64,000 bases of DNA from Naegleria gruberi (taxonomy: Eukaryota): the NCBI GenBank assembly GCA_000004985.1, contig GG738887.1. The stretch is one strand, 5' to 3'. The notes beneath the pieces were generated by a model. It did no database searches. It worked only from the letters and a program-made list of their open reading frames with translations, and was not told the origin of the DNA. Made by a program: the position numbers and the translations under genes. Positions 6,049 to 41,054 of this stretch are shown here, piece by piece; position 1 is the first letter of the stretch, and each line of letters begins with the position of its first letter.

Positions 6049-6280
6049 AAGTAAAGTTTTACTGAATCTCTTTTATCTTCATCATTGTACTATTGATTGA
6101 GAAATGATTCGTTTGGATTTGAATTTTGGAATTGTCTTCACTCTCCTTTGGTTGAGTAGTTAATGATACTTTTCCAATAATCCACAAATCACCATGTGAT
6201 GAATAAATCGGATTAATTTCAAATGATTTTAATTTTCAAAAAATTCCATTGAAAAAAGAAAAACATAAATGTGGAATGAA

Positions 6281-6292: not shown

Positions 6293-6420
6293 CGACCACG
6301 GTGGGGCTCGAACCCACATCTTTTTCTACGAAAGAAATGCGAATTGTTAATTGCAGTTAAGTTTCAGTACTGAAACCATTTGTTCTTCTGCTTTTTCCAA
6401 TTAAGCTACGTGGCCAATAA
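6293..6420 (-). tRNA. tRNA-like Pol III gene. It has canonical acceptor and T arms and A/B boxes, but a ~50-nt insertion (intron-like, containing a perfect hairpin GTTTCAGTACTGAAAC) sits between the D arm and the T arm. Anticodon could not be assigned.
   Basis: Minus-strand read begins GGCCACG-TA-GCTTAATTGGAAAAAGC and ends GTGGGTTCGAGCCCCAC-CGTGGTC-G. The 7-bp acceptor pairs with one G-U. T-arm GTGGG/TTCGAGC/CCCAC. A-box-like TAGCTTAATTGG and B-box GGTTCGAGCCC. Immediately followed by ACCA and a T8 Pol III terminator (plus 6281-6288). Confidence 0.5.
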
Positions 6421-8143: not shown

Positions 8144-8874
8144 TGGTGACTGTTTCAGCTGTTCTGGCTTGTTTGAGGAGAGAGGCTAGTTTAGTACGGA
8201 TTAGTTCTGTTTCGTTTAATAATTCTGTTAAATATTTAACAAGGTTAACACGTGTGGTTGCTGAAGGGATATCGAATACTGCTGCAACACCTCCGAATGT
8301 TATTGCTGGTTCAGCAACAGTACCAAAAGAAAACATTTTTTTACATGTGATTCTTATAGGCTAATTGATAATTTCCAGTTTCTTACGGGAGACAAGACTT
8401 TAGAACATAATGAATAACAATAAAAGTCTTTAAATTAAGGTTACATTCATTTCATGTGTTCAATATAGTTCCTTGCAAGGATGATGAGTGGATTGACATC
8501 AAAACGTCTGAATTGGAAATTCGTCGTTGAAGGTCCAAATCCAATTCAATTGTTCAATTATCATATGAAATTCTCCATCACAATTGGCTCCATAATAATT
8601 CGAATCACATTTACAATATTTTGCTGAACGCCCCAAATAGCAAACAGATAAAAAGACTACAGCACCACAGGTTCCCAAGTTGTCTCCAACCTCAGTACTG
8701 ATGTGGCTCGACGATGCTTAACTTCTCAAATCGGACGGGATGAGGTGCATTCATCGTGATATGGCCGTAGCCATTCAATAGTGCAAAATTTGAAATATTA
8801 ATGTCAAATTACATAAATGTCTTGCAAGTTTGTTGATGATGTTACTAAATGTAAATAACAAAATGTCAAAAGGT

Positions 8875-9480
8875 GCATCTCTATTGAGAGCTTTTTATTA
8901 TTGAAAATAAATAAAATCAGACCACACAAATTTTTTGTGCTTGAAGTTTTGTTTGGAATAATAAATTTGTGATTTGTGTTTGTGAAGTTGGCCATTTTAT
9001 TTTACACAAACAAATATTTGCAACAAATTTCACTGAGGTACCCAGACATGCCTTCAAGTAATAGAAAATGGTCCAATTATTCATAGCATTCATATTCTAT
9101 CGCCTAAATACGTATTTTAACTGGTTTACCTGTTGATGATTTCTCATGTTGGCTTTTAATATTAAATACCTACGGAAGACAAAAATCTGACAGAAATAAT
9201 AAATTCAATTCAGAAAAATTCCAAATCCATTAATTAGTAATCCAATAGCATCCAATATTTGAAGGTGATTAGTATTGGTCTTCATGAAAACATGTTGATA
9301 CGTGTGATGACGTGATGGTGAAGATCCTTCAAGGCATTTTTTATTATGCAATTATCAAATATTTGTGTAAAATAAAATGGCCAGTCAGCACAAACACAAA
9401 TCACAAATTTTCGGTTTGTGTAGTTGGAATTTATTTGCTTTCAAAAATAAAAAGCTCTCATTGGATTCATTATTTTCAGA
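8875..9480. repeat. Imperfect inverted repeat. Arms ~8875-9022 and ~9340-9480 (~150 bp, ~75-80% identity) separated by a ~320-bp spacer. Possible foldback/MITE-like element or inverted duplication.
   Basis: Left arm gagagctttttatt...aaatttgtgatttgtgtttgtgaagttggccattttattttacacaaacaaatatttg. Right arm is its reverse complement: caaatatttgtgtaaaataaaatggccag...cacaaacacaaatcacaaattt...aaaaagctctc. Track ORFs 8804..8995(-) and 9312..9581(+) both contain TNTNHKF, which reflects the same repeat. Confidence 0.6.
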
Positions 9481-9577
9481 ACAAAAACACCAAATGGATT
9501 ATATTATTCAGCATTGATTGTAACCCCATCTCCAATAAATCCTGGCTGCCCATTTCAAGAATGCTTAAACAACTTGT

Positions 9578-10714
9578 TTAAAACTTGCTTTTCTTTGATT
9601 TTGTTGTGGATTCACTTGCTTTACGTTTTTTTCCACATTCTTCATTTGTTTTCATGAATGAATCAAGGTAAATGGCAGGTTGATCAAAATCAGACTCTTG
9701 CAATTTCTCACGAAATTCATCCTTCATTTTTGACTTTCCAAGAAGGAATGGACTAAACCAATGATAGAGTAGTGTATTGTAAACTTTGTTAACTTTCAAT
9801 TCTTTTGGTATGTCATCTTGTTTCACACAGAGAAAATTGTTCATAATTGAGTAAGTAGTTTCATATGTGGATAGATGATAGGTAGTTTCAGCGTAGAATA
9901 ACTGATTTTCACCATTGGAAACTTCTTCTTTAAAGTAGGCATAATCTATTTGAACAACGTAATCTCCTCTAAAGCTAATATTCAAGGGATAACCAAATCC
10001 CATGAATATGACCGTCTCAATATTAAAACCTCCTTGTTCATGATTAAATTTTTCTCGAATTGGTGTGATTGACTTGATAAATAATTGTTTCAGTGGGCCA
10101 CCTTTCCAAAATCTTGAAACATTGTTAATTTCATACCTATGACCATTATCTGTAATGATTAAATCACAATCATAGTATTCTGTAAAGACCTCCTCAAATA
10201 TTTTCAATCGTAGACTCAAAGCTTTGTGTTCATCTCCAAGTCTGCTTAACATTGAATCGGTAACATTGTCATCACACTCAATCGAATATTGTGAAACTAA
10301 ATTTTTCAATTTTATCTTTGGCAATAAAGAACAATCAACATATTCCTTAAAAACAGCCTGCATGGATGAATAGTTTGGACTTGTATTTGACTGCTGACCA
10401 ATCTGACATGGATCGAATTCCTCATCACCATAACCAATATCATCGAATGAAATAGTGCTAACAATAGGTTTAAAATTTTCAACTCGTTCCTCCAAAAGCT
10501 TAACTTGCTCATCATTTAAATTCAACAATGAATGAACAAGATAACTCTTGGCAAAGTGCTCGGAATTGAAAACATTATAAAATACTTGATTGATCAATGG
10601 CGGTTGATTTTTAATCCAATCGCAAACATGGGTAAAGGAGAGAATTTTCTCTACGAGCAATGCTTCACAAAAAATGGAAGCAACAGGGCGAATAGAACAA
10701 CAGAGTTCAGACAT
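9578..10714 (-). CDS. Hypothetical protein (378 aa) with a lysine-rich C-terminal tail.
   Basis: ATG at 10714, single uninterrupted ORF, TAA stop. Tail KKRKASESTTKSKKSKF resembles an NLS. No family recognised. Confidence 0.45.
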   Translation of the reverse strand: MSELCCSIRPVASIFCEALLVEKILSFTHVCDWIKNQPPLINQVFYNVFNSEHFAKSYLVHSLLNLNDEQVKLLEERVENFKPIVSTISFDDIGYGDEEFDPCQIGQQSNTSPNYSSMQAVFKEYVDCSLLPKIKLKNLVSQYSIECDDNVTDSMLSRLGDEHKALSLRLKIFEEVFTEYYDCDLIITDNGHRYEINNVSRFWKGGPLKQLFIKSITPIREKFNHEQGGFNIETVIFMGFGYPLNISFRGDYVVQIDYAYFKEEVSNGENQLFYAETTYHLSTYETTYSIMNNFLCVKQDDIPKELKVNKVYNTLLYHWFSPFLLGKSKMKDEFREKLQESDFDQPAIYLDSFMKTNEECGKKRKASESTTKSKKSKF

Positions 10715-10852
10715 TTTTTAAGTTTTTTTTATTTACTAACCGGTACTAAGTTGTGCATGTTCAAAGGTGTTGTAACAGATGATGATTACATCTCACACTC
10801 AATTGATTGAGAAATGATTAGTTTGGATTTAAATTTTGGAAAGTCGATTTAT

Positions 10853-12590
10853 TTACAAGTCAGTTCTTGGTTTCATGAGTAATCTCATATTTTTAGGTCT
10901 AACAGTGACACCAGGTAATGGTTGAACTCTATCTTTCACATCATTTTCATCATTCAATAATTCGAAAGTGTAGAACTGCATCATTCTGCACAGGATGGAG
11001 AATTTCTCGAAAAGTGCAAATCTATAACCAATGCACTTTCTTGATCCCATGGAGAAGGAGGTCAATGTGAAATCGTGCAATTTCTTGGTTTGAGATTCGC
11101 TGTCCATTGGGAATCTTTCAGGATTAAATTCTAAAGGTTTCTCATAATTCTTTTCATAACGATTGGCTGAGTAAATGTTCAAGTTGAGGAAAGTATCTTT
11201 TGGAACGTGATACTTGCCAATGGTTGTGTCTTTCTTGGCAGTTCTAAATACACCAGTGACTGGTGGATGCAATCTTAATGATTCCAACATGACAGCTGTC
11301 ACATATGGCAAATTAGCAAAGTCATCATAATATGGTTTTCTAGCATTTGGTCCTTTTCCATAGTAGTTATCAATTTCTTGTCTAAGCTTGTTTTGAATAC
11401 TTTCATTTTTAGATAATTCATATAATGTCCATTGTAAACTTGTTGCTTTGAAAATGTTACAAAAAATTGATGAATGTTAAAAACCTACACGTTGTTTCAT
11501 GTCCGGCCAGCGAAAACACATATATGTCACTCTTGAGCTCCAAATCTGTCAATCTATCCTTTCCTTCAATTGTCATGTTGGCCTCAACCATCAAGCTCAA
11601 TAAATCTCTTTTTTCTTCATTATTTGATTGAGCATCAGAAACTTCGTCATTATTCAACTCCAGCTCTTTCTTTCTATTATTAATAATTTCGTCTAGTTTC
11701 GTACTGACATTCTCAACAGCTTTATCAACTCCAAAGCACTTGTAAGCTAGTGGAAGAGCAAAATGAAGGAATGGAACTAAATCTTTGAATAAATGATTTA
11801 ACAGAATTCCATTTGTGAACATATTTTCCAATGACCTTCTGAAAATCATTCCTTCTGGATTAGAATCATCGAAAATTGAGAAATCCAATCCGAAACCAGC
11901 CTTTCCAAGAACATCTTGAAATAGTTCAATAAAAAAATTATTAGAAACAAATAAAATTGATCACATACCCAAAGTGATATCACTAAAATCAGCATTAGCA
12001 TCCAATAAAATTCCCTTTTCTCCCTTCTTCAATGCACTTTCAATTTGTTTCTCCCATTTAAATGTACGAATCAAATCGACACTATTTACAGCCACACTTG
12101 TCATGTGTTCCAAGTTTTTCGTACCAAAGGCATTAGAGGCTACTTTGTGGTGTTTTTTCCAATCATCTCCACTATCCAAATTACTCAAAATATTAATGCC
12201 GAAAGTGTTGAATAATTCGTACAAATGAGGAGGCTTGTGGAAGATATGATTCTTGACAACGAGAACTTCCTTCAACATGTCTTTATCACAAATAACAAGG
12301 GCATTGCTCTTACTCATTGTAATTCTGGTAGTTCTTGTTTCTGGATCACCTTTCTCTCTCATTACTTGATCTGTTTCTTCAAAGCTTCCCCAGAAAACAT
12401 ATGGAGCGACCCATGGAATTTTGATTAAAGTTGCAAAGGCTTGCCACGTTCCTGGGACATTTGGCATTTTCTTGTAGTTTGAAATCAAACGCACAGCAAG
12501 ATAGAGTACCCATAATAGGAAACTCAAAATGAGCACAACAACAATTTGTTGGCCAGCAGATAATGAATCAATCAACTCGGTTAAAATCAT
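10853..12590 (-). CDS. Cytochrome P450 monooxygenase (~546 aa). Exons 12590..11969, 11914..11489 and 11445..10853; introns 11968..11915 (54 nt, GTATGT..CAAG) and 11488..11446 (43 nt, GTAGGT..CAAAG).
   Basis: N-terminal membrane anchor. I-helix AGHETTS. ExxR within ESLRLHPP. PERF. Heme-binding loop FSMGSRKCIGYRFA. Spliced junctions give ...ITLG-D-VLGKAGFGLDFS... and ...AGHETT-S-TSLQWTLYELSKN. Confidence 0.85.
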
Positions 12591-15779: not shown

Positions 15780-16118
15780 TTTTTTTCTCTTTTAATTTCC
15801 ACTAATTTGTTTCCTTTGTAAAATCTTTGCAAAAAATTGTTGGTATTCAAAGATATTGTTTTATCCAACAATACACCAATAAATTCGGAAATTATGAGCT
15901 TTATTCTACTACACGCACGTAATAGATTATTTTCAACACTGAACAACCACAAAACCAATTTCTACTAATCTATTACCCTTGAAATACTAGCAAACCGAAT
16001 AATGGTTGACAAGATGAAAAACTTGAAAATTAATTTTCAAGAAAATCTTGCCTAATTGTAATAGAATCAATTCTATTACAATTACCTCGTCCAATACTAC
16101 AACCATTATTCAAACACC

Positions 16119-16320
16119 CACAAAGTCTTTGACACTCCAAAAAATCCCCTCACCAACCCTAGAACCCAGTTCTATGTTGGCCTATTGAGCGCAGATCTTC
16201 ATCAAGCATCAAATTTGATCACCTCTATAACACCTAAAAATCCCCTCACCAACCCTAGAACCCAGTTCTATGTTGGCCTATTGAGCGCAGATTTTTAAGC
16301 ACCACAAAGTCCTTGATAAC
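16119..16320. repeat. Tandem duplication (~2.2 copies of a ~98-bp unit).
   Basis: The sequence ...aaaaatcccctcaccaaccctagaacccagttctatgttggcctattgagcgcagat occurs at 16139-16196 and 16236-16292. The flanking cacaaagtc(t/c)ttga(c/t)a also recurs. Confidence 0.7.
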
Positions 16321-16397
16321 ACACCACTAATAAAATAACAATAAAGACGTATCAAAAGAATTAATATACTCACCGAGTGTTGGGGTGGGTGGTGGGG

Positions 16398-16499
16398 AAT
16401 CAAAGTATTAAGCTTGCTCAATGTTGAAAATTTTTTAGACAAATTTTCCTATTTCTTGGTGTATTGTTTACAATAAACTTTAGTGAGTTGAATACTCAC
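16398..16499. repeat. Left copy of an identical 101-bp direct repeat (right copy at 17351..17451).
   Basis: Both copies read aatcaaagtattaagcttgctcaatgttgaaaattttttagacaaattttcctatttcttggtgtattgtttacaataaactttagtgagttgaatactca. Confidence 0.75.
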
Positions 16500-17350
16500 T
16501 CCAATTTATCCAACAATACACCAATAAATTCGGAAATTATGAGCCCATACTAGCAACCTAATTCTTTTGATACGTGATTGGCTAAAACTTAACCACAAAC
16601 TCAACTATCTAGATAAACCATACAAGCTAATTCTTCCATATAAATGGAGAATGTGCCTTAAAGGAGCCTGAATCAATGCATTAGCTTAAATCAAAACATC
16701 ACCTCTCTGGAGAACATCAAGCCAATGATTACTAATCGTGATGAATAAATAGGTTTCGCTGTGAATGGATCATTAAGGGTATTCAATTTTGGAGGTCAAC
16801 AGGAATATTAATACCATGTGGAAGTGGCGGTGTGTGTTCAAGATTATATGCTTGGCTGATAATATTCTCAAATTTAAAACATCTAGCCCATTATGTCCAA
16901 TATATTCGGAAGGATTGATTGAAGCCCTGAATCCTTTGTTAGCAATCAAGTTACTGTTATTAGGTGAGATGGAGACTTGCTGGTTCATCAGTCTTAAGGT
17001 TCATGAATTTCATAAAAGACTAGAGAACCTAAGGTGGAAGTGATGAGTCGTCTCCACTTATTCCGAAGTAAGTACTCTTGGGAAATAATCTTATCTACTT
17101 GCGTATGGTTGAACTCTATCCTTTAGCGTTCACTTTTGCAACCATCAAGAAAAAGGATACTTGTTGTTGTGTATCACCTTGACTATAAGAACAACCGTTT
17201 TGAAAGTGTTAATGTGTTCTGTTGACTTAACAATTATTATAAACAGTGTCCGAATGTTGAAGATGAAGGAACGGATGTCTGGTCGGAAGAGAATTGGTGC
17301 TAGGTTTATCGTGCTGTTTCTTGCTCTGGTTGAAAAAATTACTCTCCTTG

Positions 17351-17451
17351 AATCAAAGTATTAAGCTTGCTCAATGTTGAAAATTTTTTAGACAAATTTT
17401 CCTATTTCTTGGTGTATTGTTTACAATAAACTTTAGTGAGTTGAATACTCA
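17351..17451. repeat. Right copy of the 101-bp direct repeat (spacing 953 bp).
   Basis: Exact match to 16398..16499. Confidence 0.75.
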
Positions 17452-17655: not shown

Positions 17656-18594
17656 ATGATTGAGCAAGTGATTCAAGTTGCTTCATCATATTGGTATTTA
17701 GTATTAGCACCTTTGGGATTATTTAAATATGAAGGAGCAATGACAACTTTTGACTTGTCAATCATGTCAGCCTTTTTCTTATTCTTTTGCCCAGTGGTGT
17801 TAATTCCATTGTTATTCTTTGGTGTGAGAGCACCTTATGGAAAGTTTGCTTCTACTAATAGCAATGAAGGAGAATCAGCAGTGAGCAAATGGTGGAGAAG
17901 AATATCAAGTAAGACAGATATTGTCTTGAATGGTAGATTTGCATTTGCATTCCAAGAATCATTCGCATTATCTTCCTTCCTCTATGTATTATTAACTTGT
18001 GAATGGAATTGGCAGGATAATTTTTGGCTTAATGCCCAACAAGTGATTGCAACTGCCATGTTTATTGGACATTACATTCATAGAGCATTCATATTTACAT
18101 TGATTAGAACTCATAGTATGAGTGATTCAACCCTATCAACCATGTTGATGGCTTGCTTTTTCTGTTCATGCAACGGTTACTTGAATGCAAAAGGTATTTG
18201 GATTTATAGTGGTGGATATTTTGGAGCTATTAACGTCATTATCATGCTATTAGGAATGATTCTCTATATTATTGGATTTTACATTAACTTCCAATCCGAC
18301 CAAATATTGATTAATCTCAGAAAGAAGAATCAAACCACTGATTCTGAAAAGAAGTACTTTATTCCAACTGGAGGATTATACAAGTATGTTAGTACACCAA
18401 ACTACTTTGGAGAATCGGTCGAATGGTTTGGCTATTTCATGTGCATTCAAAATAGGTTTGCTTTTCTCTTTGTCATTTTGACCTTATCGAACTTGCTGCC
18501 AAGAGCCGTTCAAACACATCAGTGGTATTTGAATAAGTTTGGTGACAAATACAGATCTTTGAACAGAAAAGCATTTGTTCCATATTTGTTATAA
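17656..18594 (+). CDS. 3-oxo-5-alpha-steroid 4-dehydrogenase (steroid 5-alpha-reductase/polyprenol reductase) family membrane protein (312 aa).
   Basis: ATG at 17656. Multi-TM. C-terminal family signature YFIPTGGLYKYVSTPNYFGESVEWFGY. Confidence 0.75.
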   Translation: MIEQVIQVASSYWYLVLAPLGLFKYEGAMTTFDLSIMSAFFLFFCPVVLIPLLFFGVRAPYGKFASTNSNEGESAVSKWWRRISSKTDIVLNGRFAFAFQESFALSSFLYVLLTCEWNWQDNFWLNAQQVIATAMFIGHYIHRAFIFTLIRTHSMSDSTLSTMLMACFFCSCNGYLNAKGIWIYSGGYFGAINVIIMLLGMILYIIGFYINFQSDQILINLRKKNQTTDSEKKYFIPTGGLYKYVSTPNYFGESVEWFGYFMCIQNRFAFLFVILTLSNLLPRAVQTHQWYLNKFGDKYRSLNRKAFVPYLL

Positions 18595-40967: not shown

Positions 40968-41054
40968 TCCGATGAGACGGAATCGAACCGCCGACCACAG
41001 GATGACAGTGTTCCTTGCTACAGTCCCATGCTCTACCAGCTGAGCTATCATCGG
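40968..41054 (-). tRNA. tRNA-Tyr (anticodon GTA) with a ~14-nt intron immediately 3' of anticodon-loop position 37 (approx. 41017..41004).
   Basis: Minus strand: CCGATGA-TA-GCTC-AGCTGGTA-GAGC-A-TGGGA-CTGTAG-[caaggaacactgtc]-A-TCCTG-TGGTC-GGCGG-TTCGATT-CCGTC-TCATCGG-A. Architecture is near-identical to metazoan tRNA-Tyr genes (ACTGTAG|intron|ATCC). T-run downstream. Confidence 0.85.

What the first reader, a model, noticed from the sequence alone, without database searches (positions are those of the whole stretch)
8875..9480. Large imperfect inverted repeat (~150-bp arms, ~320-bp loop) in an intergenic region
Arm 8875-9022 and arm 9340-9480 are reverse complements at roughly 75-80% identity. 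They share exact blocks such as aaatttgtgatttgtgtttgtg and ggccattttattttacacaaa. The element lies in a 1.2-kb gene-free gap. It could form a long hairpin. Candidate explanations: foldback/MITE-type transposon remnant, an inverted duplication, or a structured ncRNA locus. The similar small ORFs on opposite strands (8804..8995 and 9312..9581) are mirror images produced by this repeat and are not genes.
Basis: seen in the sequence. Interest (0 to 1): 0.5.

Follow-up and report, generated by a model that had tools for sequence, protein, structure and literature searches.

The report
Small transposon insertion beside 5S gene
The inverted repeat is real and marks the two ends of a 574-base non-coding mobile DNA element that sits next to a 5S rRNA gene in the amoeba Naegleria gruberi and is cleanly absent from the same spot in a closely related strain; this is an ordinary kind of element.

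Summary
The inverted repeat is confirmed. Its arms are about 8886-9022 and 9340-9459, 87% identical over 133 ungapped columns, and the alignment score is far above shuffled controls. The window is Naegleria gruberi NEG-M nuclear DNA. The decisive result is contig L001 from an ENA metagenome. It is 98.6% identical to the window and runs colinearly from 12436 to 9455, then jumps straight to 8886-8801, so it lacks the whole structure. The missing 574 bp (8886-9459) begins and ends with a perfect 14-bp terminal inverted repeat, GAGAGCTTTTTATT. In the window it is flanked by a duplicated ATT (or ATTG) that is present only once in L001. The arms carry 11 copies of TTTGTG/CACAAA against 0.65 expected. 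There is no conserved ORF, no protein homologue and no Rfam match. My best reading is a non-autonomous terminal-inverted-repeat DNA transposon, a MITE-like element with long arms. The weak point is copy number. I found no second copy in the 64-kb window or in any searchable collection, and the rest of the N. gruberi genome could not be searched. The superfamily is undetermined. This is a known kind of element and of low interest.

The parts
8883..8885 (.). Left copy of the target-site duplication ATT. The duplicated string is ATTG at 8883-8886, so the TSD is 3 or 4 bp.
   Evidence: The empty site in L001 reads ...GCATCTCTATTGGATTCATT... with a single ATTG. The window has ATT[element]ATTG.
8886..8899 (+). 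Left terminal inverted repeat, the perfect 14-bp GAGAGCTTTTTATT.
   Evidence: The pattern search finds only two matches in the window, 8886-8899 (+) and 9446-9459 (-), both with 0 mismatches. The left boundary of the segment missing from L001 falls here.
8886..9022 (+). Left arm of the long imperfect inverted repeat. It contains subterminal TTTGTG/CACAAA hexamers and an arm-specific stretch of about 28-32 nt at 8931-8962.
   Evidence: alignment; hexamer positions 8925, 8934, 8966, 8973, 8979, 9005.
9023..9339 (.). Central non-repeated region of about 317 bp. It has no coding capacity and no similarity to anything found.
   Evidence: There are only short ORFs. The six-frame protein search found no hit. 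Rfam gave only sub-threshold chance-level hits. blastn found no other copy in the window.
9340..9459 (-). Right arm of the inverted repeat.
   Evidence: Hexamers lie at 9362, 9389, 9395, 9402 and 9415.
9446..9459 (-). Right terminal inverted repeat, GAGAGCTTTTTATT on the minus strand.
   Evidence: The right boundary of the segment missing from L001 falls here.
9460..9462 (.). Right copy of the target-site duplication ATT (ATTG at 9460-9463).
8654..8772 (-). Neighbouring 5S rRNA gene. Its 5' end is 113 nt from the left end of the element. This is context, not part of the element.
   Evidence: Rfam RF00001, 105.4 bits, E 4e-22, full length. Distance.
9578..10714 (-). Neighbouring protein gene NAEGRDRAFT_70947 (378 aa). 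Its stop codon is 118 nt from the right end of the element. This is context, and it is the anchor used for strain comparison.
   Evidence: 100% identical to N. gruberi XP_002673987.1. A 98% relative, P0001, lies on contig L001.

Best explanation
Window 8886-9459 is a 574-bp non-autonomous class II (cut-and-paste, terminal-inverted-repeat) transposable element in the nuclear genome of Naegleria gruberi NEG-M. It is a MITE-like element with unusually long imperfect arms of about 120-137 bp.

Shown:
- The element is bounded by perfect 14-bp TIRs.
- It is flanked by a 3-bp (ATT) or 4-bp (ATTG) direct duplication of the target.
- It is cleanly absent, leaving one copy of that target, in a 98.6%-identical strain.
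- It has no coding capacity.
- Its arms are packed with a short motif (TTTGTG/CACAAA) in both orientations.

Inferred:
- A transposase encoded elsewhere in the genome bound the termini and the subterminal hexamers.
- It excised the element from a donor site and integrated it through a staggered 3-4-nt cut in the spacer between the 3' end of NAEGRDRAFT_70947 and the 5' flank of a 5S rRNA gene. Gap repair then produced the duplication.
- The long hairpin potential is a by-product of the arm structure, not a function.
- The superfamily cannot be assigned from one copy.
For: - Empty site. Contig L001 (ENA ERZ929261) aligns to window 12436..9455 at 98.6% over 2985 columns with only 7 gap positions. 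It then continues at 8886..8801 at 96.5%, skipping the element. The junctions read filled TCT-ATT-[GAGAGC...GCTCTC]-ATT-GGATTC and empty TCTATTGGATTC.
- The junction cannot be an assembly collapse. Only 4 nt are shared across it, and the longest exact inverted block is 22 nt, while the contig name records k = 127.
- The perfect 14-bp TIR occurs only at the two ends.
- The long arms are significantly similar.
- TTTGTG/CACAAA occurs 11 times, all in the arms, against 0.65 expected (Poisson p about 1e-10). This resembles the subterminal transposase-binding repeats of hAT, CACTA and Mutator elements (my own knowledge).
- No coding or RNA function is detectable.
- Naegleria genomes are reported to carry DNA transposons at low level: N. 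lovaniensis 0.68% 'DNA', including CMC-EnSpm and PiggyBac (PMC6125883), and N. gruberi 0.28% TE (bioRxiv 10.64898/2026.06.24.734286).
Against: - No second copy was found. There is none in the 64-kb window. No called ORF resembling any of its six frames exists among 5.8 billion proteins. The JGI metagenome, IMG/VR and GTDB scans found nothing. The rest of the N. gruberi genome was not searchable, so this is absence of evidence only.
- No transposase gene lies in the window.
- With one filled and one empty allele and no outgroup, polarity (insertion here or precise loss there) is inferred, not shown.
- The TSD and terminal sequence match no superfamily cleanly. ATT is not the TWA of PIF/Harbinger, the terminus is not CACTA, and the TSD is too short for Mutator or hAT.
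Confidence: 0.7

Rival explanations
1. This is an old in-situ inverted duplication, not a mobile element, that decayed to about 87% arm identity. It was then deleted precisely in the lineage of the L001 strain by replication slippage between the 4-bp direct repeats (ATTG) brought together at the base of the hairpin.
For: - Only one copy is known.
- The 4-bp microhomology at the junction and the strong hairpin potential are what slipped-strand deletion of long inverted repeats requires (my own knowledge).
- Arm divergence of 13-16% far exceeds the 1.4% strain divergence, so the structure could be old.
Against: - It needs two separate rare events.
- It does not explain the motif-rich subterminal architecture.
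- It does not explain the perfectly conserved 14-bp ends and two 22-bp blocks within otherwise diverged arms.
- Neither arm nor the centre resembles the surrounding sequence or anything else in the window, so no local template for the duplication is visible.
Confidence: 0.15
2. This is a structured non-coding RNA or hairpin-RNA (siRNA-producing) locus. The arms pair in a transcript, for example read-through from NAEGRDRAFT_70947, or each arm encodes a small RNA such as a snoRNA.
For: - The whole element folds into a long hairpin.
- It lies 118 nt downstream of a gene on the transcribed strand.
- There are weak sub-threshold Rfam hits to snoRNA models: RF00542 at 19.3 bits against a threshold of 44, and RF00339 at 17.3 against 40.
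Against: - All Rfam hits have E above 1 and lie far below the gathering scores.
- Three of the four arm strands do not fold better than shuffled sequence as RNA (z -0.03 to -0.64), and the fourth is only marginal (z -1.97).
- The locus is entirely absent from a 98.6%-identical strain, so it is not an essential RNA gene.
- No expression data were available. Any hairpin RNA would be a secondary consequence of the transposon structure and not a rival origin.
Confidence: 0.07
3. These are two divergently oriented copies of a small protein-coding gene, each starting at the shared ATGGCCA (8995 minus strand, 9377 plus strand).
For: Both arms carry an ATG in the same conserved context (AAAATAAAATGGCCA), followed by ORFs of 63 and 46 aa.
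Against: - The reading frame is lost between the copies within about 3 codons (MANFTNTNHKF against MASQHKHKSQIF) because of indels.
- No homologue exists in 5.8 billion or 1.84 billion protein sets.
- The locus is absent in the sister strain.
Confidence: 0.02

Closest known systems
MITEs (miniature inverted-repeat transposable elements), the non-autonomous derivatives of TIR DNA transposons
   Same: It is small (574 bp), AT-rich and non-coding. It has terminal inverted repeats and a short target-site duplication. It lies in an intergenic spacer close to genes. It is a presence/absence polymorphism between close strains.
   Different: The arms are much longer (about 120-137 bp) and less perfect than typical 10-30-bp MITE TIRs. 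Multicopy status, which is part of the usual definition, could not be demonstrated.
Mutator/MULE-derived non-autonomous elements and Foldback-type elements
   Same: They have long terminal inverted repeats of 100-200 bp that make up half the element, and termini beginning GAGA... as in maize Mu (my own knowledge). They also have strong fold-back potential.
   Different: Mutator and Foldback elements make 8-11-bp target duplications. Here only 3-4 bp are duplicated. The arms are not built of tandem arrays as in Drosophila FB.
CACTA / CMC-EnSpm elements, which RepeatModeler reported in N. lovaniensis (PMC6125883)
   Same: They make a 3-bp target-site duplication and carry multiple short subterminal motifs in direct and inverted orientation, as in the TNPA-binding repeats of En/Spm (my own knowledge).
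   Different: The termini are GAGAGC..., not CACTA/CACTG.
PIF/Harbinger-derived Tourist MITEs
   Same: They make a 3-bp TSD, are a few hundred bp long and tend to insert near genes.
   Different: The duplicated triplet is ATT, not the TWA (TTA/TAA) typical of the superfamily. The arms are far longer than Tourist TIRs.

Membership tests
Non-autonomous TIR DNA transposon (MITE-like) | Terminal inverted repeats at the exact ends of the mobile unit | tested here: met
   A perfect 14-bp GAGAGCTTTTTATT lies at 8886-8899 (+) and 9446-9459 (-). These are the only two matches in the window. Both coincide with the boundaries of the segment missing from L001.
Non-autonomous TIR DNA transposon (MITE-like) | Target-site duplication flanking the element, present once at an empty site | tested here: met
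   ATT(G) is present at 8883-8886 and 9460-9463. There is a single ATTG in the empty allele of L001.
Non-autonomous TIR DNA transposon (MITE-like) | Small size and no transposase coding capacity | tested here: met
   The element is 574 bp. Its longest ORFs are 40-89 aa and are not conserved between the arms. There are no protein homologues.
Non-autonomous TIR DNA transposon (MITE-like) | Multiple dispersed copies in the genome with different flanks | tested here: inconclusive
   There is no second copy in the 64-kb window or in the JGI metagenome, IMG/VR, GTDB or protein collections.
Non-autonomous TIR DNA transposon (MITE-like) | An autonomous partner with matching termini that encodes a transposase | not testable with these tools
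   No transposase domain was found in any large ORF of the window. The rest of the genome was not searchable.
Mutator/MULE or Foldback | 8-11-bp target-site duplication | tested here: not met
   Only 4 nt (ATTG) are duplicated. The 9-nt flanks ATCTCTATT and ATTGGATTC do not match.
PIF/Harbinger (Tourist) | 3-bp TSD with TWA consensus | tested here: not met
   The TSD length fits (3 bp), but the sequence is ATT, not TTA/TAA.
CACTA / CMC-EnSpm | Termini 5'-CACTA/CACTG with a 3-bp TSD | tested here: not met
   A 3-bp TSD is possible, but the termini are GAGAGC.
Tc1/mariner (Stowaway) and piggyBac | TA or TTAA target duplication | tested here: not met
   The flanks are ATT/ATTG. No TA or TTAA duplication is consistent with the empty site.
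Known RNA families (Rfam 15, including snoRNAs) | Score at or above the family gathering threshold | tested here: not met
   Only the neighbouring 5S rRNA passes. The best hit inside the element is RF00542 at 19.3 bits against a threshold of 44, E = 1.5.

The most novel reading that the evidence does not exclude
The element belongs to a still-active MITE family, not yet described, in the very TE-poor Naegleria gruberi genome, and the family preferentially lands in the upstream flank of RNA polymerase III genes. Here it sits 113 nt upstream of a 5S rRNA gene. That would be a 'safe-haven' strategy so far known mainly for retrotransposons of yeast and Dictyostelium. Alternatively or in addition, read-through transcripts of the element could yield hairpin siRNAs. 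One insertion cannot show a preference, and nothing here tests expression.
Probability: 0.05. Interest if true: 0.5.

Novelty: new member of a known kind. Interest (0 to 1): 0.2.

Why it matters
It shows that at least one TIR-bounded element differs in presence between two N. gruberi-type strains that are only 1.4% diverged. That implies recent DNA-transposon activity, or recent loss, in a genome reported to be almost free of transposable elements. It also gives a simple PCR-typable strain marker next to a 5S rRNA gene. Beyond that it is an ordinary mobile-element insertion in an intergenic spacer, and nothing suggests a new mechanism.

Tried and rejected
- Rfam at gathering and at permissive thresholds: only the neighbouring 5S rRNA and two tRNAs pass, and nothing credible lies in the element.
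- RNA folding of each arm on both strands: three are no better than shuffles and one is marginal at z -1.97.
- Protein-coding reading: the ORFs are not frame-conserved. A concatenated six-frame query against 5.8 billion proteins gave 0 hits at E <= 1. An exhaustive HMMER search with the 89-aa ORF gave only multi-stretch hits of 25-41% identity in long proteins, which I read as low complexity.
- Other copies in the window: blastn with word size 7, a TIR pattern with 2 mismatches, and a window self-blast found none.
- Other copies elsewhere: the two-block internal pattern gave 0 hits in JGI metagenomes. The 21-nt TIR pattern gave 11 metagenome hits. All are chance matches of 21-35 nt without a second inverted terminus, mostly in GC-rich contigs. 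There were 0 hits in IMG/VR, and an internal 22-mer gave 0 hits in GTDB genomes.
- Fetching the N. gruberi scaffold or further strains by exact protein look-up failed for both flanking genes and for P0002 and P0003. Only L001 was obtained.
- A transposase in the window: Pfam on 30 ORFs, none found.
- Literature: no paper in the library describes MITEs in Naegleria. PRJEB11402 is not mentioned anywhere.
- The homologue search with the ORF next to the second repeat structure (17656-18594) returned no 98% strain relative, so that side observation could not be tested for polymorphism.

Full report

Yes. The repeat finder reports three colinear inverted blocks:
- 8880-8930/9415-9465 (51 nt, 82%)
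- 8963-8984/9389-9410 (22 nt, 100%)
- 8989-9010/9362-9383 (22 nt, 100%)

A gapped local alignment of the left arm against the reverse complement of the right arm scores 165.5. Three hundred shuffles gave 66 +/- 8, with a maximum of 97.5. Anchored on the true ends, the arms share 116 of 133 ungapped columns (87%). There are 44 gap positions, mainly one stretch of about 28-32 nt found only in the left arm at 8931-8962.

It is the top-listed inverted repeat in the 64-kb window. As single-stranded DNA the unit folds to -89.6 kcal/mol, against -54.8 +/- 4.7 for shuffles (z = -7.4).

The repeat ends at 8886 and 9459, not at 8875 and 9480.

**2. What is the sequence context?**

The window is eukaryotic. 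It has about 34% G+C, a 5S rRNA gene, two intron-containing tRNA genes, and a cytochrome P450 gene split into exon-sized ORFs.

The 378-aa ORF at 9578-10714 (minus strand) is 100% identical to Naegleria gruberi NAEGRDRAFT_70947 / XP_002673987.1, which lies on a 508-kb scaffold. The ORF at 17656-18594 is 100% identical to another N. gruberi protein on the same scaffold. The window is therefore N. gruberi NEG-M nuclear DNA.

The 'gene-free gap' is not gene-free. A full-length 5S rRNA gene lies at 8654-8772 on the minus strand (105.4 bits). The left end of the repeat is 113 nt upstream of the 5S 5' end. The right end is 118 nt downstream of the stop codon of NAEGRDRAFT_70947.

**3. The decisive result: an empty site in a sister strain**

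The only close relative of the flanking protein in the 15-billion-protein collection is P0001 (98% identical). It lies on a 3059-bp ENA metagenome contig, ERZ929261 k127_484337, fetched here as L001.

L001 aligns to window 12436..9455 at 98.6% over 2985 columns with only 7 gap positions. It then continues directly at window 8886..8801 at 96.5%. Everything between is missing. Read on the window's plus strand:
- Empty allele: ...GGTGCATCTCTATTGGATTCATTATTTTC...
- Filled allele: ...GGTGCATCTCT-ATT-[GAGAGCTTTTTATT ... AATAAAAAGCTCTC]-ATT-GGATTCATTATTTTC...

The extra DNA is 574 bp (8886-9459). It begins and ends with a perfect 14-bp inverted repeat, GAGAGCTTTTTATT, which occurs nowhere else in the window. 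It is flanked by a direct duplication.

The duplicated string is ATTG, so the duplication is 3 bp or 4 bp. A 3-bp ATT gives perfectly symmetrical element ends, G...C. A 4-bp ATTG gives ends offset by one base.

The junction cannot be an assembly collapse. Only 4 nt are shared across it and the longest exact inverted block is 22 nt, whereas the contig comes from a k = 127 graph. All other indels between the two strains in this 3-kb stretch are 1-3 nt, so the 574-bp difference is a discrete event.

**4. Anatomy of the element**

The layout is left arm 8886-9022, centre 9023-9339, right arm 9340-9459.

The hexamer TTTGTG/CACAAA occurs 11 times in the element, all within the arms. It lies at 8925, 8934, 8966, 8973, 8979, 9005, 9362, 9389, 9395, 9402 and 9415. 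The window background predicts 0.65 (Poisson p about 1e-10). Because the arms are copies of each other, this amounts to 5-6 motifs per arm, in both orientations. Short subterminal motifs in both orientations are how hAT, CACTA, P and Mutator transposases recognise their ends; that comparison rests on my own knowledge and is an inference here.

The perfect 14-bp termini and two perfect 22-bp blocks sit inside otherwise 87%-identical arms. This clustering of matches is mildly non-random (p about 0.04 for the second-longest run).

There is no coding capacity:
- A concatenated six-frame query found nothing among 5.8 billion proteins at E <= 1.
- An exhaustive HMMER search of 1.84 billion representatives with the 89-aa ORF returned only five hits of 25-41% identity, each in 4-8 matched stretches of a long protein, which I read as low-complexity matches.

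There is no RNA-family signal:
- The best hits inside the element are sub-threshold snoRNA models with E above 1.
- Three of the four arm strands do not fold better than shuffled controls as RNA, and one is marginal at z = -1.97.

**5. Most likely mechanism**

The element is a non-autonomous cut-and-paste (class II, TIR) transposon, MITE-like with long arms.

Shown:
- TIRs at the exact boundaries
- a target-site duplication
- an empty site in a close strain
- no coding capacity
- a motif-rich subterminal structure

Inferred:
- mobilisation in trans by a transposase encoded elsewhere
- a staggered 3-4-nt cut at the target
- the polarity of the event, insertion in the NEG-M lineage rather than loss in the other

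The hairpin potential is a consequence of the arm structure.

**6. Rival explanations**

(a) An old in-situ inverted duplication, later lost from the L001 lineage by slippage between the 4-bp repeats at the hairpin base. This fits the single known copy, the microhomology and the arm divergence (13-16% against 1.4% between strains). It requires two rare events. It does not explain the terminal and subterminal conservation pattern or the motif architecture. No local template is visible. I give it about 0.15.

(b) A structured RNA or hairpin-siRNA locus. There is no Rfam support and the arms alone show at most marginal structure (z -1.97 for one strand). The locus is dispensable in a sister strain. 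At most this would be a secondary property of the transposon. About 0.07.

(c) Two divergent small protein genes. This is refuted by frame loss and the absence of homologues.

**7. Comparison with known families**

The element meets the structural definition of a MITE or non-autonomous TIR element, except for demonstrated multicopy status.

Superfamily assignment fails every specific test I could apply:
- Mutator/Foldback share the long arms and a GAGA-type terminus, but need 8-11-bp duplications.
- CACTA/CMC share a 3-bp TSD and subterminal motifs, and are reported in N. lovaniensis (PMC6125883), but need CACTA termini.
- PIF/Harbinger share a 3-bp TSD, but prefer TWA.
- Tc1/mariner and piggyBac need TA and TTAA respectively.

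Other superfamilies with 3-4-bp duplications, such as Zator and Academ (my own knowledge), cannot be tested without a transposase.

**8. What could not be established**

Copy number is the main gap.
- No second copy exists in the window.
- There was none in the JGI metagenome scans. The 11 hits to the 21-nt TIR pattern are isolated chance matches of 21-35 nt, none with a second inverted terminus.
- There was none in IMG/VR or GTDB genomes.
- No transposase lies in the window.
- The held literature has nothing on Naegleria MITEs. Reported TE content is very low: 0.28% for N. gruberi in bioRxiv 10.64898/2026.06.24.734286, and 0.68% 'DNA' elements in N. lovaniensis in PMC6125883.

**9. Verdict**

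The ncRNA and gene readings are not supported.

This is a new member of a known kind. It has modest value as evidence of recent TIR-element mobility in a TE-poor protist and as a strain marker beside a 5S gene. Interest is 0.2. Confidence in the transposon reading is 0.7, limited by the untested copy number and polarity.

Noticed in passing
Contig L001 of the sister strain stops 29 nt short of it. That would fit an assembly break at a multicopy gene, but I did not test this.
   Followed up: partly
window 15860-17451: Two adjacent units (15860-16498 and 16505-17451) share a 100%-identical 40-nt left end (TTTATCCAACAATACACCAATAAATTCGGAAATTATGAGC) and a 100%-identical 102-nt right end. They have unrelated interiors. 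An imperfect 27-nt inverted repeat (AACAATACACCAATAAATTCGGAAATT / AATTTTCCTATTTCTTGGTGTATTGTT) lies near each end. This may be two tandem non-autonomous elements of another TIR family. No sister-strain contig was available to test for polymorphism.
   Followed up: partly
window 16134-16199 and 16230-16295: A 66-nt direct repeat at 95% identity, 96 nt apart, lies inside the first of those two units.
   Followed up: no
window 6092-6131 and 10802-10841: A 40-nt direct repeat at 95% identity (CAATTGATTGAGAAATGATTNGTTTGGATTTNAATTTTGGAA) lies in two separate intergenic spacers. One copy is 88-127 nt upstream of the start codon of NAEGRDRAFT_70947. It is conserved in the sister strain L001. It could be a shared regulatory motif or a mini-repeat.
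   Followed up: no
window 6293-6415 (-) and 40968-41054 (-): Rfam found two tRNA genes (40.4 and 54.8 bits) that are longer than a standard tRNA, so presumably intron-containing. ARAGORN found no tRNA genes in the window.
   Followed up: no
window 9578-10714 (-): NAEGRDRAFT_70947 has no Pfam domain. Its only relatives in 5.8 billion clusters are its sister-strain copy and one 42%-identical N. gruberi paralogue (NAEGRDRAFT_45733). That paralogue also has a copy in the ENA data (P0004). This is a lineage-restricted orphan gene pair.
   Followed up: partly
window 10853-12590 (-): A cytochrome P450 gene is split into three exon-sized ORFs (10853-11311, 11457-11888, 11961-12590) by two short gaps that are presumably introns.
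   Followed up: no
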